This document shows, one piece after another, positions 1 through 50,259 of a stretch of 64,000 nt of DNA (positions are counted from its first letter, which is position 1; the number at the start of each line of letters is the position of its first letter). The stretch spans positions 64,001 through 128,000 of the forward strand of contig CP000067.1 in assembly GCA_000002445.1 (NCBI GenBank), in the 5' to 3' direction. Position numbers and translations under genes: made by a program. The notes under the pieces were generated by a model. That model was not told the origin of the DNA, did not search any database, and saw nothing but the letters and a program-made list of their open reading frames with translations. Source of the stretch: Trypanosoma brucei (taxonomy: Eukaryota).

Positions 1-1710
1 TGTTTCCTTTTACTTTCTCTCAGAGTCAAACTAATTAATTAATTACTAATAACTTCCTCCAAAGATATTGCTTCTATTTTCTTGGATCAACGAGCAGCGT
101 AACACCGGAGTATTGAAATGAAGAGTCACAGTTCAAAGAATATAAAACACAGAATAAATAGACAGAGACTCGCACCTTCACAATTGGTTGCATTTGGATA
201 CATCAAACATATTTTTTCGCCTCCTTGTGTTTTTTTGGACGTGGGAGGGGTAAATGCAAAATGCAAAATGTATCAAGTTGACGAGTAGCAGAAATACAAC
301 ACTTGATATAATTTCACTTACATATAAGCTTTCGTTTCCCACTTTATTCTAATTCATAATATTTTGATAGCAATGTAATGCAGTATTCAGCCATAAACAT
401 TTTAGCCATAAATATAGTAACTAATGTGTGAATGGTAGCCCATGGCGATACATTCCATATGAAACAATACCACATTGTTAAATATATACATGGAATTAAA
501 ACTATAGCACTAAATTGAAAATGAAAAATTAAAAGAGAAAAAGATATGAATTATCAAAAGAGGCATATTCTTCACTAACATGCATTTGTTTCAATACAAT
601 CATAATTTGAAATTACTTTAAATGATAAGTGGCCCAATGTCCTGAAATGACACAATAACAATGATTTCATTATAGCACCTGTAAAATAATGATATGCAAT
701 AAAGTAAATAATAAAAATAAATAAAAATACAGCAAGCACTGCAGAATATATTTTACTGCTATAACCATTTGCCAACAGATGAATAGCTTTGCTCATTGGA
801 AGAAAATAATTAAATTCAAACTTCCTATGATTCTGCCAGTGTTAGTGAGCTACGTGTGGGACTCAAAAAACACAAAAGTTTATTTTAAATAAACATGAAG
901 AAAAGAAAAACTTCTCATGAAACCATAAGGGTACCCCTGTGAGTTATGTGCTGCTGTAAAACATAGTTAACTTCACAACCCTTAAGAAAGAGAGAAATAA
1001 TAAAAGTAAAATGTAAACAAAAATAAAGGTAAGATATATAATACACTTATGCTTAACTAAATGTAACATGTCATACGTAAAGGTGATAAAATAATAATCA
1101 CAATGTAATGTTATCAATGCTTTCCTTCACAAACAAAAACTGTCACATCTCAATGTGTTCTTCCAAATTAATATAAAGGAACCAGCTGTGTTTGTATAAT
1201 ATTCTACAATGTCATTTGGCATTGTCCAATGCTCACTCAAAAAACTCCTTCGTTTTGTTGCGATGTAGCTGTTTTCAGTTGTGCTCTTTTTTTATTTTAT
1301 TTTTTAACATACAACTATGGGTTTCCGTAATCCTCTCAATATTGCTGCAGTTCCCATCATTAAAAAAAAACAAAAGAAATCCATCAAAATAGCGTAACTG
1401 GAGTATAAGATGTTGTAGAGAACAATGTATTTATTTTGAGTAATGGAACTCTGTGAGGTCGAAGACAATAATCCGAAACGATTGAACCGAAACTTTCATT
1501 GCCCCATGCCTGTAAAATAATAATTTAATTGCTCAACGCATATTCTCATCCTGCAGTAAGTAGTTCAAACAATTTCGTACACACATGAAACACTGGAAGG
1601 AAAAGAAAACATATACATTGCATAAACCTTTACTAAATGAAAATACTATTTTTGGTATCGAGTTCACCAAGTGTTGCAGAGCCACATTTCACTAACATGC
1701 TAAAGCATAA

Positions 1711-3384
1711 TTAATTCATCATCATATTTCTGATCATAAGCGATAGGGCTTGACATTTGTATGATTCGACTCCTCCAACATTTCCTTTTACTCTTACAAT
1801 CTTCACCAACTTGTTCATAACTTCATCGTTCCGCCAGTCAGCCGTGTGTTCAATAATATCATTATAGCAATATTTATCAGATTTCTTCATAGCTCTCAAC
1901 GCATCATACACACTTTTCAGATGCCACTCATAACAACCTAAACCAAATATATAACGAGGCAGCGGTCCAATTAAATTAATGCGTCCCTCCACTATTTTCC
2001 ACTCATCTTCAATTTCTCTCTTCAATTCGTATCTTCTTCTGTTGGACACCTTTTCTCCTGTATGTATTGACAGCTTTTTCCATGCCATAAATGCCTTCAT
2101 GTCACGCACATCATCGCAGTTTATAATAATATGGTGGCCTCCCTTATTTGCACTCCACTCATCAAAATGGGCACTTTTAGGGAAAGTGAGGAAAGTTACA
2201 CTCCAAACATCAGAGGGAAGTTGAGTGTATAGTTCCTCCATTGCATACCTTGTGTCCATAACAATGTGCCCTTTGCTTTCAGATTTCATTTTATTTATGG
2301 CAGCAACGGCAGACTCCCAGCGTTTGTATTCATCAACAGTCCCTCTTCCCTCACCCTCTCGGTTGTATATCAGGAAGGCAGCATCCTCCAAGAAATATGC
2401 AACAACATCAAGCATTCCTTCATTGAAGTGAAGCAGTGAATAAAATAAAAATGATCCAAGGCCACATGTTTTACCAATTCCAGACGTGCCAATAATAATA
2501 TGTATTGGTGGACCCTCAGCTGTTGCTTCCATCCACCATGCTTTCAGACCTCGTTGGATTATATACCACACGCGCATAATTTCACGACGGATATATACAT
2601 GCTTGCAAATTGTCTTGCATCTCTCAGTGTAACCCAATACAAACCTGTTGTATGGCCAACCCTTCTCCGACGTAAGAACAAAAATCTCCAAACCATTGGA
2701 TCCTTCCTTTACTCTTGCATCAAAATCGGCAGTTTTAGGAGTTATATTCAATTCTGCCTCCGTCCATATGCGCTGCGGCCTTCCATCGAATACCTTCATT
2801 CCAAGTGGCTCCGCATCATAACCCGACATCACATAACTCCATTTCGCATTGTAAAAAGAATCGTAAACATCTCGACAACTTTTGACAGAAACACGCGGCA
2901 GAAACCATACTTCTGATTCCGTGACAGCATGTTGTACTGCATTCAACCTTCCCCTTGCTACGGGGCTAATGGAGTTTTTCACCTCTGGAGTTGCACCGTT
3001 CACCCAATCGCTGATGGTAAAAATTTTTTCCTCTTTAAGGTAGTTTATCCACATTTCTGTTTCAGGCAGTTTCTCAACAATCCTTTTGTACTCCCTGAAC
3101 TCATAAAGCCCCTGTATATCCTCAAGAATCTCGGCATCCTTAATATAATCTTCAGGATTCTTAACAAACGTTTCCATTGACACATTCACTGTGTTATACG
3201 TGTTTGAGAAGCATTGATTCAAAAAGTCATGCAGATTCATTTTGGGCAATGTCGCATATTCTTCCAGCAAAAAATCCCTCACTGTACTGTTCATTTTCCA
3301 ATCAGAAAATCTTTTATATCTCTGCGGCATCTGTGGAGGCTGAGCAGGAGGAGGTGCTACATGTTCATCCCGTGGCCTCCTCAT
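1711..3384 (-). CDS. RHS-like P-loop NTPase family protein, array copy 1. The track ORF 1711..3408 begins at a GTG. The first in-frame ATG is at 3382..3384.
   Basis: 1.7 kb minus-strand ORF with a Walker-A-like motif IIIGTSGIGKTCGLGSFLFYSLLH. From memory this resembles the GTPGIGKS...LLYxLLH motif of trypanosome retrotransposon hot spot proteins. The position corresponding to the copy-3 ATG reads GTA here. Confidence 0.55.
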   Translation of the reverse strand: MRRPRDEHVAPPPAQPPQMPQRYKRFSDWKMNSTVRDFLLEEYATLPKMNLHDFLNQCFSNTYNTVNVSMETFVKNPEDYIKDAEILEDIQGLYEFREYKRIVEKLPETEMWINYLKEEKIFTISDWVNGATPEVKNSISPVARGRLNAVQHAVTESEVWFLPRVSVKSCRDVYDSFYNAKWSYVMSGYDAEPLGMKVFDGRPQRIWTEAELNITPKTADFDARVKEGSNGLEIFVLTSEKGWPYNRFVLGYTERCKTICKHVYIRREIMRVWYIIQRGLKAWWMEATAEGPPIHIIIGTSGIGKTCGLGSFLFYSLLHFNEGMLDVVAYFLEDAAFLIYNREGEGRGTVDEYKRWESAVAAINKMKSESKGHIVMDTRYAMEELYTQLPSDVWSVTFLTFPKSAHFDEWSANKGGHHIIINCDDVRDMKAFMAWKKLSIHTGEKVSNRRRYELKREIEDEWKIVEGRINLIGPLPRYIFGLGCYEWHLKSVYDALRAMKKSDKYCYNDIIEHTADWRNDEVMNKLVKIVRVKGNVGGVESYKCQALSLMIRNMMMN

Positions 3385-6300
3385 GGGCCCTTCAATGTTA
3401 TTTGGCACTTGTGGGTTTGCGTTATTTCCTTGTGGAGCTGCGTGGCTATTGGCTCTTGATACAACTATTTTAACAACCGTTATTAACTTAACTATCTTTT
3501 CTTAACTTTACTTTTTTAACTGAAATTATAAATAGCTGAAGTAAAGCAGCCGATGAGGAAACAAAAGTGTGTGAATTGTGTAACATAATATCAAAAGTAA
3601 TATAGCAAGATAATATTTATTTACCGCTGTTTGCATAATATGATATCATAATGTATTTGATATTAAGGAAAACAATTTCAAAATATAGTAGCTGTTAATA
3701 AATATTTCCCTTACTTCATTATCATGTGCCAAATATAATTAATTTCATGTATCATTTCTTTTTAAACAACGAATAATATGGAAACAAAAAATATTACTGC
3801 CTCATACACCTGAATAAACACTTTGTATAGAGTTGACAGTTATGAAAGGTCAAATTCTATTAATTAAAATCATTTTTTAAAAATAAACAATAAGCAGAAA
3901 TATATATGGATATTAATGAAAGGGGAAAAGAATATCGGCACGAGGTATGGATATACACACATTAGTACAGACACATGAATACACAACTGTTTTCCTGCTA
4001 TTTCCTCCTTTCTGCCAATACGGGGCATTCAGTTGTATTGAAGGAACTCGTTGAAATATAAATCATTTTTCTAACCCATATACTTACCACCGGAATAACG
4101 TATTGAATAATCTCTGTAGAATATTTATGGAATTGATTATTCTTTTTTCCCCTTTTATAACGTGGAATGCTGATGCAGCTCTTGGTAGTGTTTCACCAGC
4201 AGTCTTCATTGAGATTCCATGCGGTGTCGTAGCATTGTGAGGAGAGTTCTGGGCAGAGGAGACCCGGGTTCCTCAATGTTGGATTCAGTGTGGGGCCGAC
4301 ATTGGCTCACGATAGGACTCATGAAGGAGCTTGTGAGAGTTCTCTTTTCATGCGCAATCCGAAAGAGTAGAGGACAATGAATTTATGTCTCCGGTAAAAG
4401 AGAGGTTCATCACGTTGTTCACTATATTTGCTTCCGCCTCGTTCATTTAGTGGTTGTTGTGACCCTTTTTTCTGGGGTGGGGGATTTCTGTCCCTCTTTT
4501 CCTCAATGCTACCGCTTTGTCTCGAGTTTTGTGTGTCTGCTTTTGTGCCTTGGTGAAACTCAAAAGAAACGCTAGCGAAAGGCTCACAGAAGGTAATAAA
4601 TATATTTGTAGAAATAATCCAATAATGGACCTCTTTTGAGGAATGGTGAGTGAGAAAAATGGTGCAAAAAAACATTGAAAATTTATGCCACATGGACAAG
4701 TGCTTTATAATGTTCCCACTGTGTGGAAATATGGAATATATAAGGAACATATGAGAGGCAGTGAATATTTATAGAACAAACGGAATATATGGAGAACAAG
4801 AAACGTAGGGAATATATCAAATGTATGGTATATATGGAATGTATGAGAGGCAAAAAGTATGGAAAAACTTTGTTAATTGAATATACATTCATGTATTCTC
4901 AGGTGCTGGATGTGTTTGTGCGTGTATTTGTATGTATGTGTTCTCTGCTTTATATATCACTAAATATTTTACACATTTCATTTTACTTTGCGTATGCTAA
5001 TAGCTTGTTTTTCCTTGCATCAATTCATGGAAATATCTATTAGAGAAATAATAATTTACTTTTTCTCTTTCTTTCCCGCTAATGTTTCACCGCCTATTTT
5101 CATTCCTTATAAATACTGTAAATTTCTTTTGTTACTGTAACTATTTCCAAAAAAAATGTAAGGGAGACACTTTAAGGATTACATATCATAATATCTCTAA
5201 ACTCCTTCTATGTTATGTTAAGTTACTAATATTTTCATTCCCATTAATTTTATTCAGCAGAACATACAAAACACCCTCAAAAGTCCTTCCTTCCTTTCTT
5301 TATTTTTTTTTTGAAATCATAATATATCTTGTGGAATATACAAATATATAATAACCATAAATGTGTTATATATCATCAAAACATCAGCAGCTTCACGACA
5401 TAATTGTGTCCTTCAATAAGCAGTGGCTGTGTTTTCTTTTATTTTATCTCAGAGTCAAACTAATTAATTAATTACTAACAGCATCCTCCAAAAATGTTTC
5501 TTCTATTTTCTTGGATCACTCAGCAGCGTAACACCGGAGTATTGAAATAAAGAGTCACAGTTCAAAGAATATAAAACAGTAAAAAAATAAACAGAGGCTC
5601 GCACCTTCACAATTGGTTGCATTTGGATATATCAAACATATTTTTTCGCCTCCTTGTGTTTTTTTGGACGTGGGAGGGGTAAATGCAAAATGCAAAATGT
5701 ATCAAGTTGACGAGTAGCAGAAATACACCACATGATATAATTTCACTTACATGCAAGCTTTCTTTTACAACTTTATTCCAATTCATAATATTTAGATAGC
5801 AATGTAATGGAGCATTCAGCCATAAACATTTTAACCATAAATATAGTAACTAATGTGTGAATGGTAACCCATGGTGATACATTCCATATGGAACAATACC
5901 ACATTGTTAAATATACGCATGGAATTAAAACTATAGCACTAAATTGAAAATGAAAAATTAGAAGAGAGAAAGTTATGAATTATCAAAAGAGGCATATTCT
6001 TCACTAACATGCATTTGTTTCAATACAATCATAATTTGAAATTACTTTAAATGATAAGTGGCCCAATGTCCTGAAATGACACAATAACAATGATTTCATT
6101 ATAGCACCTGTAAAATAATGATATGCAATAAAGTAAATAATATAAATAAATAAAAATACAGCAAGCACTGCAGAATATATTTTACTGCTATAACCATTTG
6201 CCAACAGATGAATAGCTTTGCTCATTGGAAGAAAATAATTAAATTCAAACTTCCTATGACTATGCCAGTGTTAATGAGCTACGTGTGGGACTCAAAAAAA

Positions 6301-7145
6301 AAACAAAAAGTTTATTTTAAATAAACATGAAGAAAAGAAAAACTTCTCATGAAACCATAAGGGTATCCGTGTGAGTTATGTGCTGCTGTCAAACATAGTT
6401 AACTTCACAACCCTTAAGAAAGAGAGAAATAATAAAAGTAAAATGTAAACAAAAATAAAGGTAAGATATATAATACACTTATGCTTAACTAAATGTAACA
6501 TGTCATACGTAAAGGTGATAAAATAATAATCACAATGTAATGTTATCAATGCTTTCCTTCGCAAACGAAAACTGTCACATCTCAATGTGTTCTTTCAAAT
6601 TAATATAAAGGAACCAGCTGTGTTTGTATAATATTCTACAATGTCATTTGGTGTTGTCCAATGCTCACTCAAAAAACTCCTTCGTTTTGTTGCGATGTAG
6701 CTGTTGACAGTGTTGTGCTCTTTTTCTTTTTTATTTTTTAACATACAACTATGGGTTTCCGTAATCCTCTCAATATTGTTGCAGTTCCCATCATTAAAAA
6801 AAAAACAAAAGAAATCCATCAAAATAGCGTAACTGGAGTATAAGATGTTGTAGAGCACAATGTATTTATTTTGAGTAATGGAACTCTGTGAGGTCGAAGA
6901 CAATAATCCTAAACGATTGAACCGAAACTTTCATTGCCCCATGCCTGTAAAATAATAATTTAATTGCTCAACGCATATTCTCATCCTGCAGTAAGTAGTT
7001 CAAACAATTTCGTACACACATGAAACACTGGAAGGAAAAGAAAACATATACATTGCATAAACCTTTACTAAATGAAAATACTATTTTTGGTATCGAGTTC
7101 ACCAAGTGTTGCAGAGCCACATTTCACTAACATGCTAAAGCATAA

Positions 7146-8819
7146 TTAATTCATCATCATATTTCTGATCATCAGTGATAGGGCTTGACATTTGTATGAT
7201 TCGACTCCTCCAACATTTCCTTTTACTCTTACAATCTTCACCAACTTGTTCATAACTTCATCGTTCCGCCAGTCAGCCGTGTGTTCAATAATATCATTAT
7301 AGCAATATTTATCAGATTTCTTCATAGCTCTCAACGCATCATACACACTTTTCAGATGCCACTCATAACAACCTAAACCAAATATATAACGAGGCAGCGG
7401 TCCAATTAAATTAATGCGTCCCTCCACTATTTTCCACTCATCTTCAATTTCTCTCTTCAATTCGTATCTTCTTCTGTTGGACACCTTTTCTCCTGTATGT
7501 ATTGACAGCTTTTTCCATGCCATAAATGCCTTCATGTCACGCACATCATCGCAGTTTATAATAATATGGTGGCCTCCCTTATTTGCACTCCACTCATCAA
7601 AATGGGCACTTTTAGGGAAAGTGAGGAAAGTTACACTCCAAACATCAGAGGGAAGTTGAGTGTATAGTTCCTCCATTGCATACCTTGTGTCCATAACAAT
7701 GTGCCCTTTGCTTTCAGATTTCATTTTATTTATGGCAGCAACGGCAGACTCCCAGCGTTTGTATTCATCAACAGTCCCTCTTCCCTCACCCTCTCGGTTG
7801 TATATCAGGAAGGCAGCATCCTCCAAGAAATATGCAACAACATCAAGCATTCCTTCATTGAAGTGAAGCAGTGAATAAAATAAAAATGATCCAAGGCCAC
7901 ATGTTTTACCAATTCCAGACGTGCCAATAATAATATGTATTGGTGGACCCTCAGCTGTTGCTTCCATCCACCATGCTTTCAGACCTCGTTGGATTATATA
8001 CCACACGCGCATAATTTCACGACGGATATATACATGCTTGCAAATTGTCTTGCATCTCTCAGTGTAACCCAATACAAACCTGTTGTATGGCCAACCCTTC
8101 TCCGACGTAAGAACAAAAATCTCCAAACCATTGGATCCTTCCTTTACTCTTGCATCAACATCGGCAGTTTTAGGAGTTATATTCAATTCTGCCTCCGTCC
8201 ATATGCGCTGCGGCCTTCCATCGAATACCTTCATTCCAAGTGGCTCCGCATCATAACCCGACATCACATAACTCCATTTCGCATTGTAAAAAGAATCGTA
8301 AACATCTCGACAACTTTTGACAGAAACACGCGGCAGAAACCATACTTCTGATTCCGTGACAGCATGTTGTACTGCATTCAACCTTCCCCTTGCTACGGGG
8401 CTAATGGAGTTTTTCACCTCTGGAGTTGCACCGTTCACCCAATCGCTGATGGTAAAAATTTTTTCCTCTTTAAGGTAGTTTATCCACATTTCTGTTTCAG
8501 GCAGTTTCTCAACAATCCTTTTGTACTCCCTGAACTCATAAAGCCCCTGTATATCCTCAAGAATCTCGGCATCCTTAATATAATCTTCAGGATTCTTAAC
8601 AAACGTTTCCATTGACACATTCACTGTGTTATACGTGTTTGAGAAGCATTGATTCAAAAAGTCATGCAGATTCATTTTGGGCAATGTCGCATATTCTTCC
8701 AGCAAAAAATCCCTCACTGTACTGTTCATTTTCCAATCAGAAAATCTTTTATATCTCTGCGGCATCTGTGGAGGCTGAGCAGGAGGAGGTGCTACATGTT
8801 CATCCCGTGGCCTCCTCAT
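7146..8819 (-). CDS. RHS-like P-loop NTPase family protein, array copy 2. The track ORF 7146..8843 starts at GTG. The first ATG is at 8817..8819.
   Basis: Differs from copy 1 by one residue (F->V in TADFDARV). Same P-loop motif. Confidence 0.55.
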   Translation of the reverse strand: MRRPRDEHVAPPPAQPPQMPQRYKRFSDWKMNSTVRDFLLEEYATLPKMNLHDFLNQCFSNTYNTVNVSMETFVKNPEDYIKDAEILEDIQGLYEFREYKRIVEKLPETEMWINYLKEEKIFTISDWVNGATPEVKNSISPVARGRLNAVQHAVTESEVWFLPRVSVKSCRDVYDSFYNAKWSYVMSGYDAEPLGMKVFDGRPQRIWTEAELNITPKTADVDARVKEGSNGLEIFVLTSEKGWPYNRFVLGYTERCKTICKHVYIRREIMRVWYIIQRGLKAWWMEATAEGPPIHIIIGTSGIGKTCGLGSFLFYSLLHFNEGMLDVVAYFLEDAAFLIYNREGEGRGTVDEYKRWESAVAAINKMKSESKGHIVMDTRYAMEELYTQLPSDVWSVTFLTFPKSAHFDEWSANKGGHHIIINCDDVRDMKAFMAWKKLSIHTGEKVSNRRRYELKREIEDEWKIVEGRINLIGPLPRYIFGLGCYEWHLKSVYDALRAMKKSDKYCYNDIIEHTADWRNDEVMNKLVKIVRVKGNVGGVESYKCQALSLMIRNMMMN

Positions 8820-11800
8820 GGGCCCTTCAATGTTATTTGGCACTTGTGGGTTTGCGTTATTTCCTTGTGGAGCTGCGTGGCTATTGGCTCTTGATACAAC
8901 TATTTTAACAACCGTTATTAACTTAACTATCTTTTCTTAACTTTACTTTTTTAACTGAAATTATAAATAGCTGAAGTAAAGCAGCCGATGAGGAAAACAA
9001 AAGTGTGTGAATTGTGTAACATAATATCAAAAGTAATATAGCAAGATAATATTTATTTACCGCTGTTTGCATAATATGATATCATAATGTATTTGATATT
9101 AAGGAAAACAATTTCAAAATATAGTAGCTGTTAATAAATATTTCCCTTACTTCATTATCATGTGCCAAATATAATTAATTTCATGTATCATTTCTTTTTA
9201 AACAACGAATAATATGGAAACAAAAAATATTACTGCCTCATACACCTGAATAAACACTTTGTATAGAGTTGACAGTTATGAAAGGTCAAATTCTATTAAT
9301 TAAAATCATTTTTTAAAAATAAACAATAAGCAGAAATATATATGGATATTAATGAAAGGGGAAAAGAATATCGGCACGAGGTATGGATATACACACATTA
9401 GTACAGACACATGAATACACAACTGTTTTCCTGCTATTTCCTCCTTTCTGCCAATACGGGGCATTCAGTTGTATTGAAGGAACTCGTTGAAATATAAATC
9501 ATTTTTCTAACCCATATACTTACCACCGGAATAACGTATTGAATAATCTCTGTAGAATATTTATGGAATTGATTATTCTTTTTTCCCCTTTTATAACGTG
9601 GAATGCTGATGCAGCTCTTGGTAGTGTTTCACCAGCAGTCTTCATTGAGATTCCATGCGGTGTCGTAGCATTGTGAGGAGAGTTCTGGGCAGAGGAGACC
9701 CGGGTTCCTCAATGTTGGATTCAGTGTGGGGCCGACATTGGCTCACGATAGGACTCATGAAGGAGCTTGTGAGAGTTCTCTTTTCATGCGCAATCCGAAA
9801 GAGTAGAGGACAATGAATTTATGTCTCCGGTAAAAGAGAGGTTCATCACGTTGCTCACTATATTTGCTTCCGCCTCGCTCATTTAGTGGTTGTTGTGACC
9901 CTTTTTTCTGGGGTGGGGGATTTCTGTCCCTCTTTTCCTCAATGCTACCGCTTTGTCTCGAGTTTTGTGTGTCTGCTTTTGTGCCTTGGTGAAACTCAAA
10001 AGAAACGCTAGCGAAAGGCTCACAGAAGTTAATAAATATATTTGTAGAAATAATCCAATAATGGACCTCTTTTGAGGAATGGTGAGTGAAAAAAATGGTG
10101 CAAAAAAACATTGAAAATTTATGCCACATGGACAAGTGCTTTATAATGTTCCCACTGTGTGGAAATATGGAATATATAAGGAACATATGAGAGGCAGTGA
10201 ATATTTATAGAACAAACGGAATATATGGAGAACAAGAAACGTAGGGAATATATCAAATGTATGGTATATATGGAATGTATGAGAGGCAAAAAGTATGGAA
10301 AAACTTTGTTAATTGAATATACATTCATGTATTCTCAGGTGCTGGATGTGTTTGTGCGTGTATTTATATGTATGTGTTCTCTGCTTTATATATCACTAAA
10401 TATTTTACACATTTCATTTTACTTTGCGTATGCTAATAGCTTGTTTTTCCTTGCATCAATTCATGGAAATATCTATTAGAGAAATAATAATTTACTTTTT
10501 CTCTTCCTTTCCCGCTAATGTTTCACCGCCTATTTTCATTCCTTATAAATACTGTAAATTTCTTTTGTTACTGTAACTATTTCCAAAAAAAATGTAAGGG
10601 AGACACTTTAAGGATTACATATCATAATATCTCTAAACTCCTTCTATGTTATGTTAAGTTACTAATATTTTTATTTCCCATTCATTTTATTCAGCAGAAC
10701 ATACAAAACACCCTCAAAAGTCCTTCCTTCCTTTCTTTATTTTTTTTTGAAATCATAATATATCTTGTGGAATATACAAATATATAATAACCATAAATGT
10801 GTTATATATCATCAAAACATCAGAAGCTTCACGACATAATTGTGTCCTTCAATAAGCAGTGGCTGTGTTTTCTTTTATTTTATCTCAGAGTCAAACTAAT
10901 TAATTAATTACTAACAGCATCCTCCAAAGATGTTTCTTCTATTTTCTTGGATCACTCAGCAGCGTAACACCGGAGTATTGAAATAAAGAGTCACAGTTCA
11001 AAGAAAATAAAACAGTAAAAAAAATAAACAGAGGCTCGCACCTTCACAATTGGTTGCATTTGGATATATCAAACGCATTTATACACTTGCATTCCTTGTG
11101 TTTCTTTTTTGGGGGGGAGGGTAAATGCAAAATGTATCAAGTTGACGAGTAGAAGAAATACACCACATGATATAATTTCACTTACATACAAGCTTTCTTT
11201 TCCCACTTTATTCTAATTCATAATATTTAGATAGCAATGTAATGGAGCATTCAGCCATAAACATTTTAACCATAAATATAGTAACTAATGTGTGAATGGT
11301 AACCCATTGCGATACATTCCATATGGAACAATACCACATTGTTAAATATACGCATGGAATTAAAACTATAGCACTAAATTGAAAATGAAAAATTAGAAGA
11401 GAGAAAGTTATGAATTATCAAGAGAGGCATATTCTTCACTAACATGCACTTGTTTCAATACAATCATAATTTAAAATTAAGTTAAATGATAAGTGGCCCA
11501 ATATCCTGAAACGACACAATAACAATGATTTCATTATAACAACTGTAAAATAATGATATGAAATAAAATAAATAATAAAAATAAATAAAAATACAGCAAG
11601 CACTGCAGAATATATTCTACTGCTATAACCATTTGCCAACAGATGAATAGCTTTGCTCATTGGAAGAAAATAATTAAATTCAAACTTCCTATGATTCTGC
11701 CAGTGTTTGTCGGCTACATGTGGGACTCAAAAAAAACAAAAGTTTATTTTAAATAAACATGAAGAAAAGAAAAACTTCGCATGAAACCATAAGGGTATCC

Positions 11801-12575
11801 GTGTGAGTTATGTGCTGCTGTCAAACATAGTTAACTTCACAACCCTCAAGAAAGAGAGAAATAATAAAAGTAAAATGTAAACAAAAATAAAGTTAAGATA
11901 TATAATACACTTATGCTTAACTAAATGTAACATGTCATACGTAAAGGTGATAAAATAATAATCACAATGTAATGTTATCAATGCTTTCCTTCACAAACGA
12001 AAACTGTCACATCTCAATGTGTTCTTTCAAATTAATATAAAGGAACCAGCTGTGTTTGTATAATATTCTACAATGTCATTTGGTGTTGTCCAATGCTCAC
12101 TCAAAAAACTCCTTCGTTTTGTTGCGATGTAGCTGTTGTCAGTTGTGCTCTTTTTTTATTTTATTTTTTAACATACAACTATGGGTTTCCGTAATCCTCT
12201 CAATATTGCTGCAGTTCCCATCATTAAAAAAAAACAAAAGAAATCCATCAAAATAGCGTAACTGGAGTATAAGATGTTGTAGAGCACAATGTATTTATTT
12301 TGAGTAATGGAACTCTGTGAGGTCGAAGACAATAATCCTAAACGATTGAACCGAAACTTTCATTGCCCCATGCCTGTAAAATAATAATTTAATTGCTCAA
12401 CGCATATTCTCATCCTGCAGTAAGTAGTTCAAACAATTTCGTACACACATGAAACACTCGAAGGAAAAGAAAACATATACATTGCATAAACCTTTACTAA
12501 ATGAAAATACTATTTTTTGGTATCGAGTTCACCATGTGTTACAGAGCCACATTTCACTAACATGCTAAAGCATAA

Positions 12576-14294
12576 TTAATTCATCATCATATTTCTGATC
12601 ATCAGCGATAGGGCTTGACATTTGTATGATTCGACTCCTCCAACATTTCCTTTTACTCTTACAATCTTCACCAACTTGTTCATAACTTCATCGTTCCGCC
12701 AGTCAGCCGTGTGTTCAATAATATCATTATAGCAATATTTATCAGATTTCTTCATAGCTCTCAACGCATCATACACTCTTTTCAGATGCCACTCATAACA
12801 ACCTAAACCAAATATATAACGAGGCAGCGGTCCAATTAAATTAATGCGTCCCTCCACTATTTTCCACTCATCTTCAATTTCTCTCTTCAATTCGTATCTT
12901 CTTCTGTTGGACACCTTTTCTCCTGTATGTATTGACAGCTTTTTCCATGCCATAAATGCCTTCATGTCACGCACATCATCGCAGTTCATAATAATTTGGT
13001 GGCCTCCCTTATTTGCACTCCACTCATCAAAATGGGCACTTTTAGGGAAAGTGAGGAAAGTTACACTCCAAACATCAGAGGGAAGTTGAGTGTATAGTTT
13101 CTCCATTGCATACCTTGTGTCCATAATAATGTGTCCTCTGTTTTCAAATTTCATTTTATTTATGGCAGCAACGGCAGACTCCCAGCGTTCGTATTCATCA
13201 ACAGTCCCTCTTTCCTCACCCTCTCGGTTGTATATCAGGAAGGCAGCATCCTCCAAGAAATATGCAACAACATCAAGCATTCCTTCATTGAAGTGAAGCA
13301 GTGAATAAAATAAAAATGATCCAAGGCCACATGTTTTACCAATTCCAGACGTGCCAATAATAATATGTATTGGTGGACCCTCAGCTGTTGCTTCCATCCA
13401 CCATGCTTTCAGACCTCGTTGGATTATATACCACACGCGCATAATTTCACGACGGATATATACATGCTTGCAAATTGTCTTGCATCTCTCAGTGTAACCC
13501 AATACAAACCTGTTGTATGGCCAACCCTTCTCCGACGTAAGAACAAAAATCTCCAAACCATTGGATCCTTCCTTTACTCTTGCATCAAAATCGGCAGTTT
13601 TAGGAGTTATATTCAATTCTGCCTCCGTCCATATGCGCTGCGGCCTTCCATCGAATACCTTCATTCCAAGTGGCTCCGCATCATAACCCGACATCACATA
13701 ACTCCATTTCGCATTGTAAAAAGAATCGTAAACATCTCGACAACTTTTGACAGAAACACGCGGCAGAAACCATACTTCTGATTCCGTGACAGCATGTTGT
13801 ACTGCATTCAACCTTCCCCTTGCTACGGGGCTAATGGAGTTTTTCACTTCTGGAGTTGCACCGTTCACCCAATCGCTGATGGTAAAAATTTTTTCCTCAG
13901 AGAGATAAATATCTGCCCTCAGTAATTGAAACTCATCCGTATCCTGTATATCCTCAAGAATCTCGGCATCCTTAATATAATCTTCAGGATTCTTAACAAA
14001 CGTTTCCATTGACACATTCACTGTGTTATACGTGTTTGAGAAGCATTGATTCAAAAAGTCATGCAGATTCATTTTGGGCAATGTCGCATATTCTTCCAGC
14101 AAAAAATCCCTCACTGTACTGTTCATTTTCCAATCAGAAAATCTTTTATATCTCTGCGGCATCTGTGGAGGCTGAGCAGGAGGAGGTGCTACATTTTCAT
14201 CCCGTGGCCTCCTCATGGGCCCTTCAATGTTATTTGGCACTTGTGGGTTTGCGTTATTTCCTTGTGGAGCTGCGGGGCTATTGGCTCTTGACAT
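12576..14294 (-). CDS. RHS-like P-loop NTPase family protein, array edge copy 3 (572 aa). It has a bona fide ATG start and an 18-aa longer N-terminus (MSRANSPAAPQGNNANPQ...).
   Basis: ATG at 14292..14294 (plus-strand cat). Same P-loop motif. An internal segment is replaced relative to copies 1 and 2, and about a dozen scattered substitutions are present. Confidence 0.6.
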   Translation of the reverse strand: MSRANSPAAPQGNNANPQVPNNIEGPMRRPRDENVAPPPAQPPQMPQRYKRFSDWKMNSTVRDFLLEEYATLPKMNLHDFLNQCFSNTYNTVNVSMETFVKNPEDYIKDAEILEDIQDTDEFQLLRADIYLSEEKIFTISDWVNGATPEVKNSISPVARGRLNAVQHAVTESEVWFLPRVSVKSCRDVYDSFYNAKWSYVMSGYDAEPLGMKVFDGRPQRIWTEAELNITPKTADFDARVKEGSNGLEIFVLTSEKGWPYNRFVLGYTERCKTICKHVYIRREIMRVWYIIQRGLKAWWMEATAEGPPIHIIIGTSGIGKTCGLGSFLFYSLLHFNEGMLDVVAYFLEDAAFLIYNREGEERGTVDEYERWESAVAAINKMKFENRGHIIMDTRYAMEKLYTQLPSDVWSVTFLTFPKSAHFDEWSANKGGHQIIMNCDDVRDMKAFMAWKKLSIHTGEKVSNRRRYELKREIEDEWKIVEGRINLIGPLPRYIFGLGCYEWHLKRVYDALRAMKKSDKYCYNDIIEHTADWRNDEVMNKLVKIVRVKGNVGGVESYKCQALSLMIRNMMMN

Positions 14295-16501
14295 GTCTCT
14301 TATTATAACAATAATAATAATTATTATTAACTTAACTTAACTTCTATTACTTTCCTGATAATAAAAATAACTAACTAACGTAATGCATATTGTTGCGGTG
14401 GTTGATAAAGAATAGGAGGAGGTGGTAAAATAGAAAAGTAAAAGGGGATGAATAGCACTCACGTACGCAACACCGGTTATGTTGTGTCTCCCTCTTCGTC
14501 CTCTCAATTCAAGTTAGCAAAACAGAAACACGCACAAACACACACACATATATATATGTGAAACCTTACATTCAAATATAAGAAATTATAATATGGAATG
14601 TTATGCATCATTAGTTGTCACTACTTATTGCATAAAATAATAGAAAAATTAATTGCATCACGTGTATGTTTCTTTAGTGCCTCCTCTAAGAGGGAAAACT
14701 AAAGTGGTAACATTTGTCTGTTTAGTTTGTGTAAACTTCATATAAACTAACATACGGAAATAAAAAAATTAATAATAGACAGCTAATTAAGAAACGCGTC
14801 ATCGCATCACATTCCTTTAATAACTAACGAGAGAAAAAAAAATAGTAGGGTTTTCACAATAATGGATGTTAAAAGATTATGTGTAACAAAATTAAATGAT
14901 ACCCTATTTACTTTTTCGATAATATTCACTGGTAATATAAATCATACAATTTCAAGCACTGAAGGCAAAAGGTCCACAGGCTACATATTCATCATGTCAC
15001 ATGTGTCCGTATACCCTGTTAAACAACTTTCGTTCACTCACTCAATCATAGTCAATGCTTCATAAACAAAGTACGTCTTTTATTATGATCTGAAGGGAAA
15101 CTTATTATTATTATTTTTATTAAATTGTCTCGTTCACAATTCATATCCATTTCCCTCCATTCCACAACTTATACATGGACGTTTTTGAGAATGCTACCTG
15201 GAGTGCAGTGTGCAATTTATTAACAGTGAAAACAAAAAAAAAACATTTAGAAACTAGCGGTTCTCACTGCGGAAGAGCAACTGCAACAACAACAAAACAT
15301 CTTCCGCCTTTGGGTTTTGACAAATCAAAAGTGTATATTAGGACTGAATTAATAAAATACCTCATATTCCCTTTGTATGTTCTCATTTGGTTGTCATTTA
15401 AACTACGGGTTCCGTTGTAGCATATACATCGCTGAATTTTAAAATATATATATTTCGCTTCAACAAATAGTAACAACTATCGTGCTGGAAGGGACAATAA
15501 GTTAATGTATTTTTTTTTTGTTTTCCACATTCGTGGTACAGTGTTTGACCTCATCTCCTCTCTTCCTCGTGGAGCTGAGTTCACCAGATGCCGTGGCATT
15601 CACAATATTTTGTACGCACGAACTTTACCTGAAAATAATAAAGGAATGAAAATGATAATTCGCCGCTTCAAGATAATGCGAGTGCAGACACGACAAAAAC
15701 TACCGCTGCGCCTCAAAAAGGCACATCACGGCGTGGAGCCTTTAATGCAGTTTCTGTCAAATTTATCGTTAACGTTATTTCTTTCTTTCCATGGGGGTGG
15801 CGTGGCGATGCCGGATGTCGCTATCGTATGCATCATGGGGCAGCAGCTGCTGAGGGAGATAGAGAGGAAAAAAACGTATTTTTTTTTGTTCATTGCATTG
15901 AGCTTTACTGCCATTCGCTGACGATCCATTTCGATCATTCCAAATCGTGTGTTGCAGTAAATCTTAAGCGATTATAATAATATCGCATCCACGGTATGTT
16001 TTACACTGAAAAGAATAAACCACACCTGCGCTTAACATGCTCGCGGCTCCCTCCCCTCCATCATCCATGTTTACTACATTGTATTTCAACTGCAAACTAA
16101 TTGCCTAACTACTGAAGTGTTTGAGCAATGCGCCACCACACAAAAACAGAAAAGTGCTATGGAGGCGCTTGCATTTTAGTTGGACACAAATTGTCTCACT
16201 TTCAAATTCTGCAAGCGCACACACACGCAGATACACATAAAACATACGTATTCTTTCCAACACTTTTTGGAGGCACCTAAAGAAAAGTTATGATACAAAG
16301 GAATTACCGGGTCACATGAAAGAGTGCATAAATTGAAGTGCAAACAATGTTTCAACAGTAGAAATCGATACTTTTTTTTTTGCTGCTATCGTTAAAGGTG
16401 AAGTCGAACAAGATAACGACACGCAACCCATCGTGATACTGCGGCCCTTTGTTATTATTTATTATGTACCGGTGTCCTTACGTTGACAAGAGAAAGCGTT
16501 T

Positions 16502-16528
16502 CCCCCCCCTTTTTTTTGGGGGGGGAGA
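16502..16528. repeat. Homopolymer palindrome C9-T10-G8 (a potential hairpin with a C:G stem and T loop).
   Basis: Read directly: tccccccccc tttttttttt gggggggg at 16501..16528, in the non-coding gap between the RHS-like array and the HECT gene's 3' end. Confidence 0.8.
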
Positions 16529-16880
16529 GGAGTTAATGGGGGACTCCACAAGACTCAGTAGCTTTAATGGCGCAACTATAATCTTACATTCCAACAACCG
16601 CCGCCGTGAGGGCGGAGTCACTGACAAAAAAGCATGATTTGCACATGAATGGCAGTTGAGGTCTTTGCCACGACTCTTTACCTTGCACATACGCTCCAAA
16701 CAAAAAAAAAAATCACCACCCCCTTAGCTATTGCAACACTCGCTAAAGTCGTTAAACCATACAAAGATGTATAGAAGGCACATATTGCCATACAGATGTG
16801 GTTTCATGCTTTAATCGAATGAAATTCACGCTCTTCATATAATGATGAAAAGGCGCTCTCCCCCGTTTACTGCGATGCAA

Positions 16881-19800
16881 TTAGGCGTCCAAAACAATGT
16901 GCTCTTGTGCTAGCCCGTCAGTATCGATGGCTTCACAGTGCCGGATGGCATACAAAATCCGGTCACGCATAACATCAATTGAACTGTAGGCGGGTATACG
17001 GAGTGTAAAGAAACAAGTATTACTGGTTGGAAGGGAGTCACGGGTCCCTCCCCTTTTAACTTTGATGTTTTCCTTGAGCGGCAGCCTTGTTTGTCCCGTT
17101 GTAAAGCGGAGAAGCAGCATCCGGTCTTTATCACACATAGTTTCAATAACTTCGTCAAACATTTGTGAATCGTTTGAGGGGAGAGAGACCTCACAAACGT
17201 CACGCAGTGCTTGACAAGATAACTTAGGCGTCCCACAAATGATCAACTCCACTTGCTGCCAGCGGAAGGCATTGAGTGTGTACAAGGGGATTACTTGACC
17301 GAACCCATGCCGAATATGGCTGATCACCACATCATACTTGTGAACTTCGATGGAGGCAATATGTTCTGCGAGTATTCCCGCAGTACGAAGATCCACAGGC
17401 GGCAATTCCTCCCGCATTCTAAGGTGAGAATTTTCACTACAGAATCTCAACCAACTCTCCTGTAGGCCTGGAAATCTCTCCTCCAGCTCCTCAGCCGTCC
17501 GCTCTGCTAACGCCTCCGGTGTTAATTGCCTCATTATGTCACGATCCATGGCCCTCAGGTCACGCAGTGATGTTTCCTCGCTAAGTAAGAGTTTCCAAAA
17601 CAGTGGTGGAAACTCCACGGCGAGGAGATCTTTGGTAATAAAACACGCTGCGAGAAACTTCCCGAAAAACTCGAACATGGGAAACAGCTGAAATTCAAGA
17701 GCCATTGTTGCATTTGGCATCACGGCCAACTGCCCATCACAACCGCAGTCCTTAAAGAGGGGATTCTGTTGGAATTTCCCGCTTGGGTGTGTTGACATAA
17801 TCTCTGTCGCAAGCTGTGATAGAATATCGCGGTAAGGTCCCCCCACGTCCGTAGATCCAAAACCGGCAAGCTTTACGGTGAACATGGGCGAGACATAGAA
17901 GATAGAAATCGGACTTCGCTGAAGCTGCGCGAACAACTGTCCGAACACGGAACGCATTAGCGTTGGGTAAAAACCGTAGCGCACAGAGGCCCGGGCGTGC
18001 ATTGTATGAATGGTAACTTTCCCTTTGTGCCCCGTGCGATTTCTGAAAGGCCGCATTGTCTCATTTTGGATTTTTTTTGAAGACTCTGCAGAGCAAAGGC
18101 TCTTAAGCTTCTTCCACATTTCAAAAAGTTCTGTGCTGCGCCGAATGTCAACTACCACAGAAAAAACAGCCGTCAGTGTATCAAATATTTGTAGACGCTT
18201 AACATATGGTACGAGCCGCTCAATCGGAACATCGTTCCCCAGGACGTCAGCACCAAGGAAGGACAACAAGTGAGTATATTCCACTAAATCATGGGAAGGA
18301 ACAGTCAACGACGCATCACCGTTAGGGGAAACAAGCAACTTCTCTGATATCGAAAAGGTTTGACAAAACAGGGACAATTCAGCATAAAATTCGAACGATT
18401 GCGCGACAACCTCCGTGTCGAGGCGATGGGGATGTTCCTGGAACCTGCTGTAGAGTTGGGACACGTCCATACCAGTAGATGCTTCAGTGAGAAGTTGCTC
18501 ACCATGAAACGTTGCGTCTTCCCTTCTTTCCGCGAAGAACACCGGAAGTGCCAACATTTCGTTAGGAAATGTCTCAAATCGAGTAGTTGTTTCATTTTTC
18601 GACTCCCTCTGGAGATTAAATATAACGGCTTGCTCATGATATAAACACGTTACCAGAACAATGTCGCCACCTTTTGCTCTCACTTGCAATGGCTGCGATT
18701 CTTTTTTACGGCTTAGACAAAGATGTATCTTTCCATTTGGCTTTATGAGGTAACCACATGACGGTAACAAAGTGCTGGCCGACGACTGATCCTTATCTGA
18801 CGTACCTGCTGCTAGGGAACCCGGTAGTGAAGCATCCATGTTCCATCCAACGACAACATTTCCACATCGTGCAGAGTTCAAAACTACTTCGAATTTTTTC
18901 GAACCGAATGTACATCGAAACGTTTGGGAGAAGACACCGTAACAGCTACAGTACCCCTCGGGTGATGTTGGGCCGGTCAGTAGCTCAAAGCTGATACGGT
19001 GTGACTCCTGTTGCCCTCGCGTGAAAGCCTCGGGTAAAGGCCGTGGTGGTTTGGATGTAACCGCTTCGATGGCCAACTTCGTGCAAATGACAATGGCATA
19101 CGGTACACAACTCTGCCTCCCAGGAGCTGGTAAACTGGGTCGCTCCAGTTGATAACGCTGCAGAAGCTCACTCACCAGCAATATACCCAACTGTACAAAC
19201 GTACAGGACATCTTCCCCCTCTGACACATGCTACTTATCACAGCTAGAAGTGGAGCAAGTGATGCGCAAAGGGCTTCATGTGATGGCAGCGGGCAATTGC
19301 TCATTTTAAGCAACTGAAGCACGCATCGCAGAGCAACATTTCTTACCGCACGTACATGTGCCGTTGCGGTGCGAAGCAATAAAAGCATCAATGTTGATCC
19401 GAATGATGTCGACAGAAGATGGATGACGCCATCAAGGCTGAGCGACACATAAATGAGGTTGACGCTAACTTCCACGTTTTCTGCACTTTGCGCAGCGAAT
19501 GGCGCCGCAAGGCATGCGTAAGCGGCCGCAAGCAGAAAAAATGAGGATCTGCGGACCTCCGCCCGAACCAAAGCAGTGAGGGAGGACAAATCATTCCGCA
19601 GTGTAGTGTACGGAAGCAGATGTTGTAGTGTCTTGAGTGTATCCGATGAATTGCAACTCATGATGACGGTACCAATCAGTTTCTTCGCATACGACACCAT
19701 GGCCTCTTCAACTTGTGGTATAAGACTCGACTCACCACCACTTTGAATTCCTATAGCTGGTGTATTCCATGAGTGCTGACCGAGAGACCCCATCCCCTGC

Positions 19801-36722: not shown

Positions 36723-37306
36723 CACAGGCTTTGTCCACAAGCTAATTCTTCGACGGCAAGTTCAGGCGAGAGATATAACAAAATATGTGAAGCAAAAAAA
36801 AAAAAACAGTCTTAGACGATAATCCCCTTTTCAGATTGTGCTTTTCCTATTCGAATCCCCCTCCTTTCTTTTTCTCTTTGTTTGCGTTTGTACGCACCTT
36901 TAGTACCCTCTGTCCAAACCCGCCGAATAAGAGGAGAAGGGAGAAAAAAAAAGGCAAAAAGTTGTGCTACAGAAAGGGTAAGTGACTGAGTGAATAGCAA
37001 TGGCGACAATTCCTCAAAACCCTTAAATAATATACGGACACATTAACTGACTAGTGGAACTAGTAGGCGCGATCTGACTACACGGTGACTATCATCATCC
37101 CTGCCTAAATGCTTTCTTTATTATGTTAAGCACCGAGTCGTGCAGAGAAATTAACGGGCGCTCACAAAGATACACCAAATAATTATTATCACTTTGCCTT
37201 TTTCGGTACTCCTATATTTAGGCAAAAGAGATGAAGCACGTCCTTTCACTAAACACCCACAAGGTTGGAATATCCACTGCGAATGGGATGGCTCGTCGTA
37301 ACGCTC

Positions 37307-49863: not shown

Positions 49864-50259
49864 TGGGGCTTTTCCTTACTTGGATGTTCTATTTTATGAC
49901 TGACTCACACGAAAAAGAAAAAAAGACACTGAAACAAGTAGTGGGGCATGCAAGAAATATATTTATATATATAATATGCACAATAATAGTAAGTAACAAA
50001 GAAATAAATTGCAGTGTCCTCCGAGTACATGATGAGGGGGGAAAAGGAAAAGAAAAGAAAATCAAGCGCCATGAGGGAAGTCGAAATGGTGATGCAGAGG
50101 AGAGTTCCTATTCCGCACCGTCCAGATATACGATAACAATTAAAAAAAAGAAAAGAACTGGTAACGCTTGTACAATGCACCTCACTATTTTTCTTTTTCT
50201 TTAAAAATGAAAAGAAAAAAAAGAAGGGTAATAGTAATGTAAAAGGGGTATTCAGCATA

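What the first reader, a model, noticed from the sequence alone, without database searches (positions are those of the whole stretch)
1..14294. RHS-like tandem array whose unit boundary falls exactly at the start codon, so internal copies lack the ATG
The unique sequence/array junction at ~14290 lies within 4 nt of the ATG of the edge copy (14292..14294). In the two internal copies the corresponding triplet is GTA, and upstream sequence is the tail of the next unit with an in-frame stop. The internal copies must therefore initiate at Met 27 of the copy-3 reading frame (GPMRR) or be non-functional. Copies 1 and 2 are nearly identical while the edge copy is diverged, the usual signature of concerted evolution in trypanosome arrays. 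Each gene is followed by 3.7 kb of extremely AT-rich spacer, unusually long for a simple array spacer. It could hold decayed retroelement or RHS remnants.
Basis: partly seen in the sequence, partly recalled or inferred. Interest (0 to 1): 0.5.

Follow-up and report, generated by a model that had tools for sequence, protein, structure and literature searches.

The report
Annotated RHS3 gene array, mutated starts
This is the already annotated tandem array of RHS3 genes on Trypanosoma brucei chromosome 4; the inner copies lost their first start codon through point mutations, not through a repeat boundary, so the finding is real but ordinary.

Summary
The window is T. brucei brucei TREU927 chromosome 4 (v4 coordinates 64001-128000). 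The three minus-strand genes are true RHS proteins (Pfam RHSP, RHS_N, DUF7578), closest to named RHS3. The edge copy equals XP_844180 (Tb927.4.300, 572 aa). The inner copies equal XP_844178 and XP_844179, which RefSeq already starts at the Met-27 equivalent (557 aa).

The causal reading does not hold. The sequence upstream of the inner copies is not a foreign unit tail. It is the standard RHS 5' flank, 84-85% identical to two unlinked RHS loci, and it runs straight through the start position. There the start reads ATG in the paralogs, ATA in the T. b. equiperdum inner copy and GTA in TREU927. The start was therefore lost by substitution and spread by concerted evolution.

The edge copy has the unusual upstream sequence. 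Only about 100 nt of weakly similar 5'UTR remain, including the published splice-acceptor site. About 1.7 kb of each spacer is RHS flank or decayed RHS C-terminus. No retroelement protein-domain remnant was detected. Novelty and interest are low.

The parts
12576..14294 (-). Edge RHS3 copy (Tb927.4.300, XP_844180), 572 aa, retaining the ancestral ATG at 14294..14292.
   Evidence: ORF. Exact match to XP_844180. Pfam RHSP, RHS_N and DUF7578. Gene ID from matching the Kolev 2010 Table S12 coordinates and product name from PMC7952579.
14295..14374 (-). 5'UTR of the edge copy (80 nt, no upstream ATG). The published predominant spliced-leader acceptor site is at window 14374, directly after an AG at 14376-14375.
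   Evidence: Kolev 2010 Table S12 lists SAS chr4 78374 and a 5'UTR of 80 nt. The window offset of 64000 was verified at two genes, and the AG was checked.
14295..14404 (-). Diverged RHS-type 5'UTR-like block upstream of the edge copy. Identity to canonical RHS 5'UTRs is 64-66%, and no similarity is seen beyond it.
   Evidence: Four-way alignment, block identities, and borderline shuffle z-scores of 3.3 and 5.6.
7146..8819 (-). Inner copy 2 CDS as annotated (XP_844179), 557 aa, starting at the Met-27 equivalent.
   Evidence: exact match to P0048.
8820..8897 (-). Former first 26 codons of inner copy 2, still open but without a start codon. The mutated start triplet GTA is at 8897..8895.
8898..9507 (-). 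Canonical RHS 5' flank of inner copy 2, with a polypyrimidine tract and a candidate acceptor AG that would start the 5'UTR at -73. It is homologous to the 5' flanks of unlinked RHS loci L001 and L006.
   Evidence: Homology to L001 reaches window 9174 and homology to L006 reaches 9507. Identity is 84-85%. z=71 against shuffles.
1711..3384 (-). Inner copy 1 CDS as annotated (XP_844178), 557 aa.
   Evidence: exact match to P0001.
3385..3462 (-). Former first 26 codons of inner copy 1, with GTA at 3462..3460.
3463..4071 (-). Canonical RHS 5' flank of inner copy 1.
6567..7145 (-). Decayed, frame-shifted remnant of the C-terminal domain of a longer RHS gene, lying just past the RHS3 stop codon. The same feature occurs after copy 1 and copy 3.
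   Evidence: Alignments of long RHS proteins run about 58 codons past the stop. The last 37 residues of RHS4-like proteins match 6677-6567 with E of 2e-4 to 1e-3. This evidence is weak to moderate.
6083..6536 (-). RHS-type 3' flank, 67-77% identical to the sequence immediately after the stop codon of RHS4-like array genes. The unit-3 equivalent is 11518-11968.
4072..6082 (.). Central AT-rich spacer core with no detectable relative. It contains a 143-aa ORF (4319-4750, minus strand) that is unlikely to be a gene.
   Evidence: No Rfam match. No Pfam match in six frames. No match to the rest of the window or to other RHS loci. ORF variation is all non-synonymous or frameshifting.
13899..13946 (-). 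Mosaic patch 1 in the edge copy: the short form, where the inner copies carry a long form with 33 extra nt at 8469-8549. The two forms are swapped between edge and inner copies in T. b. equiperdum.
   Evidence: Both forms occur among RHS paralogs.
12987..13190 (-). Mosaic patch 2, private to the TREU927 edge copy. It resembles other RHS paralogs (KFENRGHIIMD, as in P0006).
1..1710 (-). Partial spacer downstream of copy 1. The array continues to the left of the window.
   Evidence: Two further 557-aa copies, XP_844176 and XP_844177, are on record.

Best explanation
This is the RHS3 tandem array of T. brucei TREU927 chromosome 4: five annotated copies, three of them in the window. It lies immediately downstream of the giant HECT ligase gene Tb927.4.310, in the same minus-strand polycistronic unit.

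Each inner unit is a complete RHS cassette. It has at least 610 nt of canonical RHS 5' flank with a polypyrimidine tract and acceptor AG, the coding region, about 580 nt of decayed C-terminal domain, about 450 nt of RHS-type 3' flank, and a roughly 2 kb AT-rich core with no detectable relative.

In the inner copies the ancestral start codon was destroyed by point substitutions. The third-base change (ATG to ATA) is shared with T. b. equiperdum. The first-base change (ATA to GTA) is seen only in TREU927. The change was spread among inner copies by unequal crossing-over or gene conversion. After trans-splicing, the first AUG on their mRNA would be the conserved Met-27 codon. This would give a 557-aa protein that lacks 26 residues of a predicted disordered N-terminal tail.

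The edge copy keeps the ATG. It sits at the very end of the high-homology block, because the upstream sequence of the edge copy is only weakly related. Conversion tracts need homology on both sides, so they can swap patches 350 nt downstream but rarely carry the start-codon variant across. This last step is inferred.

Shown: identity of the genes, array anatomy, homology of the inner upstream sequence to other RHS loci, the start-codon states, the patch swap between strains, and the splice site of the edge copy. Inferred: the splice site and translation start of the inner copies, tolerance of the truncation, and the reason for the position-locked ATG.
For: Identity and annotation. The edge protein equals XP_844180, and the inner proteins read from Met-27 equal XP_844178 and XP_844179. 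Pfam gives RHSP 6e-55, RHS_N 3e-31 and DUF7578 1e-17. The best named relative is RHS3 Q8WPQ6, at 65% identity over the full length. Tb927.4.300 is named 'RHS3, putative'.

Canonical upstream sequence. The inner upstream region aligns with the 5' flanks of two unlinked RHS loci at 84-85% identity. The alignment against L001 gives z=71. Homology extends 277 nt upstream with L001 and 610 nt with L006. The edge upstream region is only 40-44% identical beyond about -100.

Start position. The sequence is AGTTATGTCAAG in both paralogs, GACATGTCAAG in the edge copy, AGTTATATCAAG in the T. b. equiperdum inner copy and AGTTGTATCAAG in the TREU927 inner copies. The N-terminus MSRANSPAAPQGNNAN is shared by RHS1- and RHS3-type paralogs, so the ATG is ancestral.

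Splicing and translation. The published SAS of Tb927.4.300 falls right after an AG 80 nt upstream of the ATG. The aligned AG in the inner copies is at -73, and no ATG lies before Met-27.

Concerted evolution. Patch 1 is swapped between edge and inner copies in T. b. equiperdum, while the start-codon state stays tied to position.

Structure. The AlphaFold model gives pLDDT below 50 and no secondary structure for residues 1-53.
Against: No expression or splice-site data exist here for the inner copies. Only the edge copy appears in Kolev's Table S12, possibly because reads from the near-identical inner copies cannot be assigned uniquely. Their translation from Met-27 is therefore inferred.

Only two lineages could be compared (TREU927 and T. 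b. equiperdum), and the latter contig ends inside the array.

The similarity of the edge 5'UTR to canonical RHS 5'UTRs is borderline by shuffle test (z=3.3 and 5.6), so the exact end of homology (about -100 versus about -13) is uncertain.

The conversion-tract explanation for the retained ATG is not tested.
Confidence: 0.8

Rival explanations
1. The duplicated segment began exactly at or after the ATG, so every inner copy is preceded by unrelated unit-tail sequence and never had a start codon.
For: High identity between the edge and inner copies (99%) begins at the codon after the ATG and drops sharply upstream.
Against: The inner upstream sequence is 84-85% identical to the 5' flank of two unlinked RHS genes, right up to the start position. 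It differs from their ATG by one substitution (T. b. equiperdum) or two (TREU927). It is the edge copy, not the inner copies, that lacks the canonical flank.
Confidence: 0.04
2. The inner copies are non-functional. The start-codon loss would mark them as young pseudogenes whose long ORFs persist only because homogenisation is recent, and only Tb927.4.300 would make protein.
For: The ancestral ATG is lost. Only the edge copy has a mapped splice site in Kolev 2010. The former leader of the inner copies carries 4 substitutions across two strains, against 0 in the edge copies (small numbers). The Met-27 context has C at -3, against A at -3 for the edge ATG.
Against: All four TREU927 inner copies and the T. 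b. equiperdum inner copy keep intact ORFs of 546-557 codons. Met-27 would be the first AUG of the predicted mRNA, and it is conserved in most paralogs. The lost residues lie in a predicted disordered tail. The absence from Table S12 may instead reflect multi-mapping reads.
Confidence: 0.2
3. The edge junction really is at the ATG. In this view the roughly 100 nt upstream of the edge ATG is unrelated chromosome-core sequence, its resemblance to RHS 5'UTRs is compositional (AT-rich, AAGTTAAG motifs), and the edge copy marks a recombination joint between chromosome core and RHS cluster within about 13 nt of the ATG.
For: blastn homology of the edge copy to the paralog L001 starts only 13 nt upstream of the ATG. 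The shuffle z against the inner upstream region is only 3.3, and some shuffles score higher.
Against: The four-way alignment shows shared blocks: TGC-TTAC-T-AG at the mapped acceptor, AAGTTAAGTTAATAA, and AAGAG..ATG. Identity is 64-66% against 40-44% further upstream. z=5.6 against L001, above all 300 shuffles.
Confidence: 0.15

Closest known systems
RHS3 subfamily of the T. brucei retrotransposon hot spot (RHS) multigene family (Bringaud et al. 2002, as summarised in PMC6393297; UniProt Q8WPQ6)
   Same: It has the same three Pfam domains, the Walker A motif GTSGIGKT, the same short length class (572-590 aa against 690-860 aa for other RHS), the same N-terminus MSRANSPAAPQGNNANPQV and the same C-terminal end ...LSLMIRNMMMN. 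The database product name for Tb927.4.300 is RHS3.
   Different: It is only 65% identical to the named RHS3 protein. It lies in a regular five-copy array next to core genes rather than in a subtelomeric RHS cluster. Four of the five copies have lost the family's usual start codon.
Tandem gene arrays of T. brucei evolving in concert by unequal crossing-over and gene conversion (Jackson 2007, PMC1855330)
   Same: Inner copies are near-identical. The copies at both ends are more diverged. Chimaeric patches are present. Non-coding parts are homogenised as much as coding parts. The paper describes conversion events that span start codons and UTRs, and divergence of copies separated by divergent flanks.
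   Different: This RHS3 array does not appear among that paper's arrays in the text searched; only the RHS7 array is listed. The position-locked start-codon difference is a detail I did not find described.
RHS4-like tandem array of T. b. equiperdum (locus L005, CM010678.1)
   Same: It is a head-to-tail RHS array with a period of about 5.57 kb and a spacer of about 3.5 kb. Its 3' flank is 67-77% identical to part of this array's spacer.
   Different: It belongs to a different subfamily: 686-691 aa, no DUF7578 hit, and an intact C-terminal domain that survives in the RHS3 array only as a decayed remnant.

Membership tests
RHS (retrotransposon hot spot) protein family | RHSP P-loop domain (PF07999) with an ATP/GTP-binding motif | tested here: met
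   PF07999 E=6e-55 for the edge copy and 1e-54 for the inner copy, both far above the cut-off. Walker A GTSGIGKT is at residue 314.
RHS (retrotransposon hot spot) protein family | RHS N-terminal domain (PF20445) and DUF7578 (PF24466) upstream of the P-loop domain | tested here: met
   PF20445 E=3e-31 and PF24466 E=1e-17 to 7e-19.
RHS (retrotransposon hot spot) protein family | Closest relatives are annotated RHS proteins of trypanosomes | tested here: met
   All 45 hits are RHS proteins of T. brucei, T. vivax, T. cruzi and T. conorhini.
RHS (retrotransposon hot spot) protein family | RIME/ingi retroelement inserted at the conserved hot spot in the 5' part of the coding region. This is the feature that gave the family its name. 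It is present in only a subset of RHS (pseudo)genes and is not required for membership. | tested here: not met
   All three copies have uninterrupted ORFs collinear with intact paralogs.
RHS (retrotransposon hot spot) protein family | Nuclear localisation or association with RNA polymerase II transcription (shown for RHS2, RHS4 and RHS6 in PMC6393297) | not testable with these tools
   This needs localisation or ChIP experiments. RHS3 was not analysed in that paper.
RHS3 subfamily | Subfamily-specific C-terminal region (subfamilies are defined by their C-termini, per PMC6393297 citing Bringaud 2002) | tested here: met
   The full-length alignment to RHS3 Q8WPQ6 has 100% coverage and 65% identity and ends in the same ...QALSLM(I/T)RNMMM(N/S). 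Longer subfamilies align only to about residue 590-646 and then run past the stop.
Tandem array under concerted evolution | Copies within the array are more alike than they are to paralogs, including in non-coding parts | tested here: met
   Units are 96.5-98.5% identical to each other, against about 75% to the nearest paralog locus.
Tandem array under concerted evolution | Mosaic or chimaeric tracts, and loss of positional orthology between lineages | tested here: met
   Patchwork identity in the 3' spacer. Patch 1 is swapped between edge and inner copies in T. b. equiperdum relative to TREU927.

The most novel reading that the evidence does not exclude
The array may be kept as a two-isoform system. 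One edge gene would make full-length RHS3 with the 26-residue N-terminal extension. Several inner genes would make an N-terminally shortened form that also carries a different 11-residue patch in DUF7578. Selection, rather than only the geometry of gene conversion, would keep the ATG at the edge position in different T. brucei lineages.
Probability: 0.1. Interest if true: 0.3.

Novelty: already known. Interest (0 to 1): 0.1.

Why it matters
It matters little beyond annotation quality. The genes, their family, their RHS3 label and the shorter 557-aa models of the inner copies are already in the reference annotation. The added value is a corrected account of why the inner copies lack the first ATG: substitutions within a canonical RHS 5' region, not a repeat boundary. 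It is also a tidy example of how a variant at the very edge of a homology block can escape homogenisation while patches a few hundred nucleotides away are exchanged. It also shows that about 45% of the long spacer is RHS flank and decayed RHS C-terminus, so RHS3 here appears to derive from a longer RHS gene truncated by a premature stop.

Tried and rejected
- The Rfam scan of 1-17000 at E<=0.1 found nothing.
- Tandem Repeats Finder found only three trivial short repeats.
- A six-frame Pfam scan of the spacer at E<=1 gave no family, so no reverse-transcriptase or endonuclease remnant of ingi type was detected.
- A blastn search of the spacer against the rest of the window and four other RHS loci found only RHS-flank matches and no dispersed repeat. 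An all-against-all comparison of loci yielded no RIME/ingi-like element that could serve as a probe. RIME, which is non-coding, therefore could not be tested.
- The 143-aa ORF in the spacer was rejected as a gene. All differences between units and strains are non-synonymous or frameshifting, and the five RHS proteins carry consecutive RefSeq accessions.
- Exact-protein look-ups of TREU927 proteins returned no contig, so the left end of the array could not be fetched.
- Bringaud 2002 is not held in the library.
- The Nilsson 2010 supplements hold no entry for these genes, and no Siegel 2010 supplements are held.
- A text search for Tb927.4.260 to Tb927.4.290 found nothing. Those IDs for the inner copies are therefore my inference from the numbering.
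- The idea that a spliced 5' exon supplies an ATG is rejected from my own knowledge. Trypanosome mRNAs receive only the 39-nt spliced leader, which as I recall it contains no ATG and ends in ...TATATTG, so it cannot create one at the junction.
Full report
**What the sequence is.** An exact-sequence look-up shows that the 572-aa product of 12576-14294 (minus strand) is XP_844180 of Trypanosoma brucei brucei TREU927. It clusters with four 557-aa proteins, XP_844176 to XP_844179, from the same 1,590,432-bp record, which is chromosome 4. Read from their first ATG, window copy 1 equals XP_844178 and copy 2 equals XP_844179.

Published splice-site coordinates fix the window position. Kolev et al. 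2010 Table S12 gives Tb927.4.300 a predominant acceptor at chr4 78374 with an 80-nt 5'UTR, and Tb927.4.310 an acceptor at 100909 with a 187-nt 5'UTR. With an offset of 64000, these land exactly 80 nt upstream of the ATG at 14294 and right after an AG dinucleotide. They also land on the first ATG (36722) of the 6619-codon HECT ORF. The window is therefore chr4 64001-128000 in v4 coordinates. [quoted passage not shown]

**Check of the observation.** The array is real. Direct-repeat families have spacings of 5429-5436 nt, and there are three minus-strand ORFs.
- The alignment of the three start regions shows ATG in the edge copy and GTA in both inner copies.
- In-frame stops lie 42, 48 and 66 nt upstream of the GTA.
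- The next ATG is the Met-27 equivalent, and no ATG in any frame lies between -125 and +78.
- Units 1 and 2 are 98.5% identical over 5.4 kb and differ at 3 of 1752 coding positions.
- The edge unit is 96.5-97.2% identical. Its coding differences are concentrated in two patches.
- The spacer is 3737 nt at 32% GC, against 41% for the genes and 49% for the HECT gene.

All the descriptive points hold.

**RHS identity.** Pfam gives RHSP (E=6e-55), RHS_N (E=3e-31) and DUF7578 (E=1e-17). All 45 database relatives are trypanosome RHS proteins. After the array's own cluster, the best is the named RHS3 protein Q8WPQ6, at 65% identity over the full length, with the same N-terminus and the same C-terminal end.

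**Why the inner copies lack the ATG.** I fetched an RHS3 paralog locus from T. b. equiperdum (L001) and an RHS pseudogene locus from T. b. gambiense (L006). Their 5' flanks align with the sequence upstream of the inner copies, not with that upstream of the edge copy.
- blastn homology of L001 to the inner units starts 277 nt upstream of the start position, but only 13 nt upstream in the edge copy.
- L006 homology to the inner units runs 610 nt upstream.
- In the block from about -100 to -300, the inner copy is 84-85% identical to both paralogs, while the edge copy is 40-44% identical to all of them.
- The local alignment of the inner upstream region against L001 scores z=71 against dinucleotide shuffles.

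The alignment runs straight through the start position. There both paralogs read AGTTATGTCAAG, the T. b. equiperdum inner copy reads AGTTATATCAAG, and the TREU927 inner copies read AGTTGTATCAAG. The N-terminus MSRANSPAAPQGNNAN is shared by RHS1-type and RHS3-type paralogs.

The ancestral ATG was therefore lost by a G-to-A change at its third base, shared by both lineages. TREU927 then added an A-to-G change at the first base. The change is present in both inner copies in the window. The 557-aa models imply it in the two copies to the left. That pattern is what concerted evolution would produce. The inner copies are not cut off by a unit boundary.

**The edge copy.** Its upstream sequence is the unusual one. 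Beyond about -100 it is unrelated to RHS flanks. Between -100 and -1 it is 64-66% identical to canonical RHS 5'UTRs. Shared blocks lie around the mapped acceptor (TGC-TTAC-T-AG), at AAGTTAAGTTAATAA, and just before the ATG. Statistically this is borderline: z=3.3 against the inner copy and z=5.6 against L001. I read it as a diverged RHS 5'UTR. On that reading, the 99%-identity boundary at the ATG marks the end of the homogenised tract rather than the end of homology. I give the alternative, a true joint within about 13 nt of the ATG, a probability of about 0.15.

**Evidence for conversion and a position-locked start.** The orthologous T. b. equiperdum region (L003) is collinear with window 20000-3969 at 97% identity. 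It has the same arrangement: ATG at the HECT-proximal copy and ATA in the next copy. Patch 1 includes a 33-nt indel about 350 nt into the gene. Both of its forms exist among RHS paralogs. It is swapped in T. b. equiperdum, where the edge copy has the long form and the inner copy the short form, the reverse of TREU927.

Sequence is therefore exchanged between edge and inner copies, but the start-codon state is not. The simplest explanation is geometric and is inferred. The ATG sits at the last nucleotides of the high-homology block, so conversion tracts rarely include it. Selection for one full-length copy is a less likely alternative.

The TREU927 edge copy also carries a private patch (12987-13190) that resembles other paralogs. 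The copy at the other end of the array, XP_844176, has 12 amino-acid differences from copy 1. Both end copies are therefore the diverged ones. This fits the spatial limits on concerted evolution that Jackson 2007 describes for T. brucei arrays.

**Likely consequence.** The inner copies have a polypyrimidine tract and an AG aligned with the mapped acceptor of the edge copy. This gives a predicted 5'UTR of about 151 nt with no upstream AUG. Scanning ribosomes would start at the Met-27 codon, which most paralogs conserve. An AlphaFold model built on 25 homologs has pLDDT below 50 and no secondary structure for residues 1-53. The 26 lost residues are therefore half of a predicted disordered tail, and the folded domains begin after residue 55.

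All five ORFs in TREU927 and the inner ORF in T. b. equiperdum are intact. I infer that the inner copies encode a slightly shortened RHS3. I give about a 0.2 chance that they are not translated, because no copy-specific expression data were available. Only the edge copy appears in Kolev's table.

**The spacer.** It is not anonymous throughout. In gene orientation after the stop codon:
- Long RHS proteins keep aligning for about 58 codons past the stop.
- The last 37 residues of RHS4-like proteins match 6677-6567 in another frame, with E of 2e-4 to 1e-3.
- The sequence that follows the stop codon of RHS4-like array genes then matches 6536-6083 (11968-11518 in unit 3) at 67-77% identity.
- At the other end, 4071-3463 is canonical RHS 5' flank.

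About 1.7 kb of each 3.7 kb spacer is thus RHS flank or decayed RHS C-terminus. RHS3 here appears to derive from a longer RHS gene cut short by a premature stop. The central 2 kb (4072-6082) has no Rfam hit, no Pfam hit in six frames and no relative in the loci at hand. Its 143-aa ORF varies only by non-synonymous changes and a frameshift. A RIME remnant cannot be excluded, because no RIME sequence was available. The RHS4-like array in T. b. equiperdum has a 5.57 kb period and a 3.5 kb spacer, so a spacer of this length is normal for RHS arrays.

**Comparison with what is known, and verdict.** The RHS family, its seven subfamilies and its link to Pol II transcription are published (PMC6393297). 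Tandem-array concerted evolution in T. brucei is published (PMC1855330). The five genes and the shorter models of the inner copies are in RefSeq. Within the library searched, I did not find the start-codon substitutions, the swapped patch or the composition of the spacer described. These are minor refinements. The finding is real, its key causal claim is wrong, and the object is an ordinary, already annotated RHS3 array.

Noticed in passing
window 16881-36740 (-): A giant 6619-codon ORF with a C-terminal HECT domain, Tb927.4.310. The published splice site implies that the true start is the ATG at 36722, the seventh codon of the mechanical ORF. In the T. b. equiperdum annotation the same gene is broken into pieces of 1206 and 1932 aa, probably through assembly frameshifts.
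   Followed up: partly
window 4319-4750 (-) and 9755-10186 (-): A 143-aa ORF sits on the coding strand inside each spacer, in a locally GC-richer stretch with positive GC skew. All differences between units and strains are non-synonymous or frameshifting, so it is probably not a gene.
   Followed up: partly
window 45001-46000 and about 46091-46104: An AT-rich zone (GC 0.32) with strong negative AT skew. Kolev 2010 lists a novel non-annotated transcript, Tb4.NT.6, with its splice acceptor at chr4 110091-110104, which is window 46091-46104.
   Followed up: no
window 50001-51000: A strong positive AT skew (0.38) with GC 0.37, in an apparently intergenic stretch between ORFs at 48862-49863 and 51494-52669. 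It remains unexplained.
   Followed up: no
L003 9594-11344 versus window 12576-14294: The T. b. equiperdum edge copy has a 1-nt deletion at coding position 349 that truncates its annotated product to 447 aa. This could be a real frameshift or a long-read homopolymer error.
   Followed up: partly
L005 1-14076 (T. b. equiperdum CM010678.1): An RHS4-like tandem array with a period of about 5.57 kb. Its 3' flank is related to the 3' part of the RHS3 spacer, which suggests that RHS subfamilies share an ancestral 3'UTR.
   Followed up: partly
left of the window (chr4 about 51-64 kb): Two further 557-aa copies, XP_844177 and XP_844176, lie outside the window. The distal-most one has 12 amino-acid differences from copy 1, so both ends of the array are diverged. 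The other array junction was not seen.
   Followed up: partly
PMC7952579 Table 3: [quoted passage not shown] This may hint at stage-regulated expression of the edge copy.
   Followed up: no
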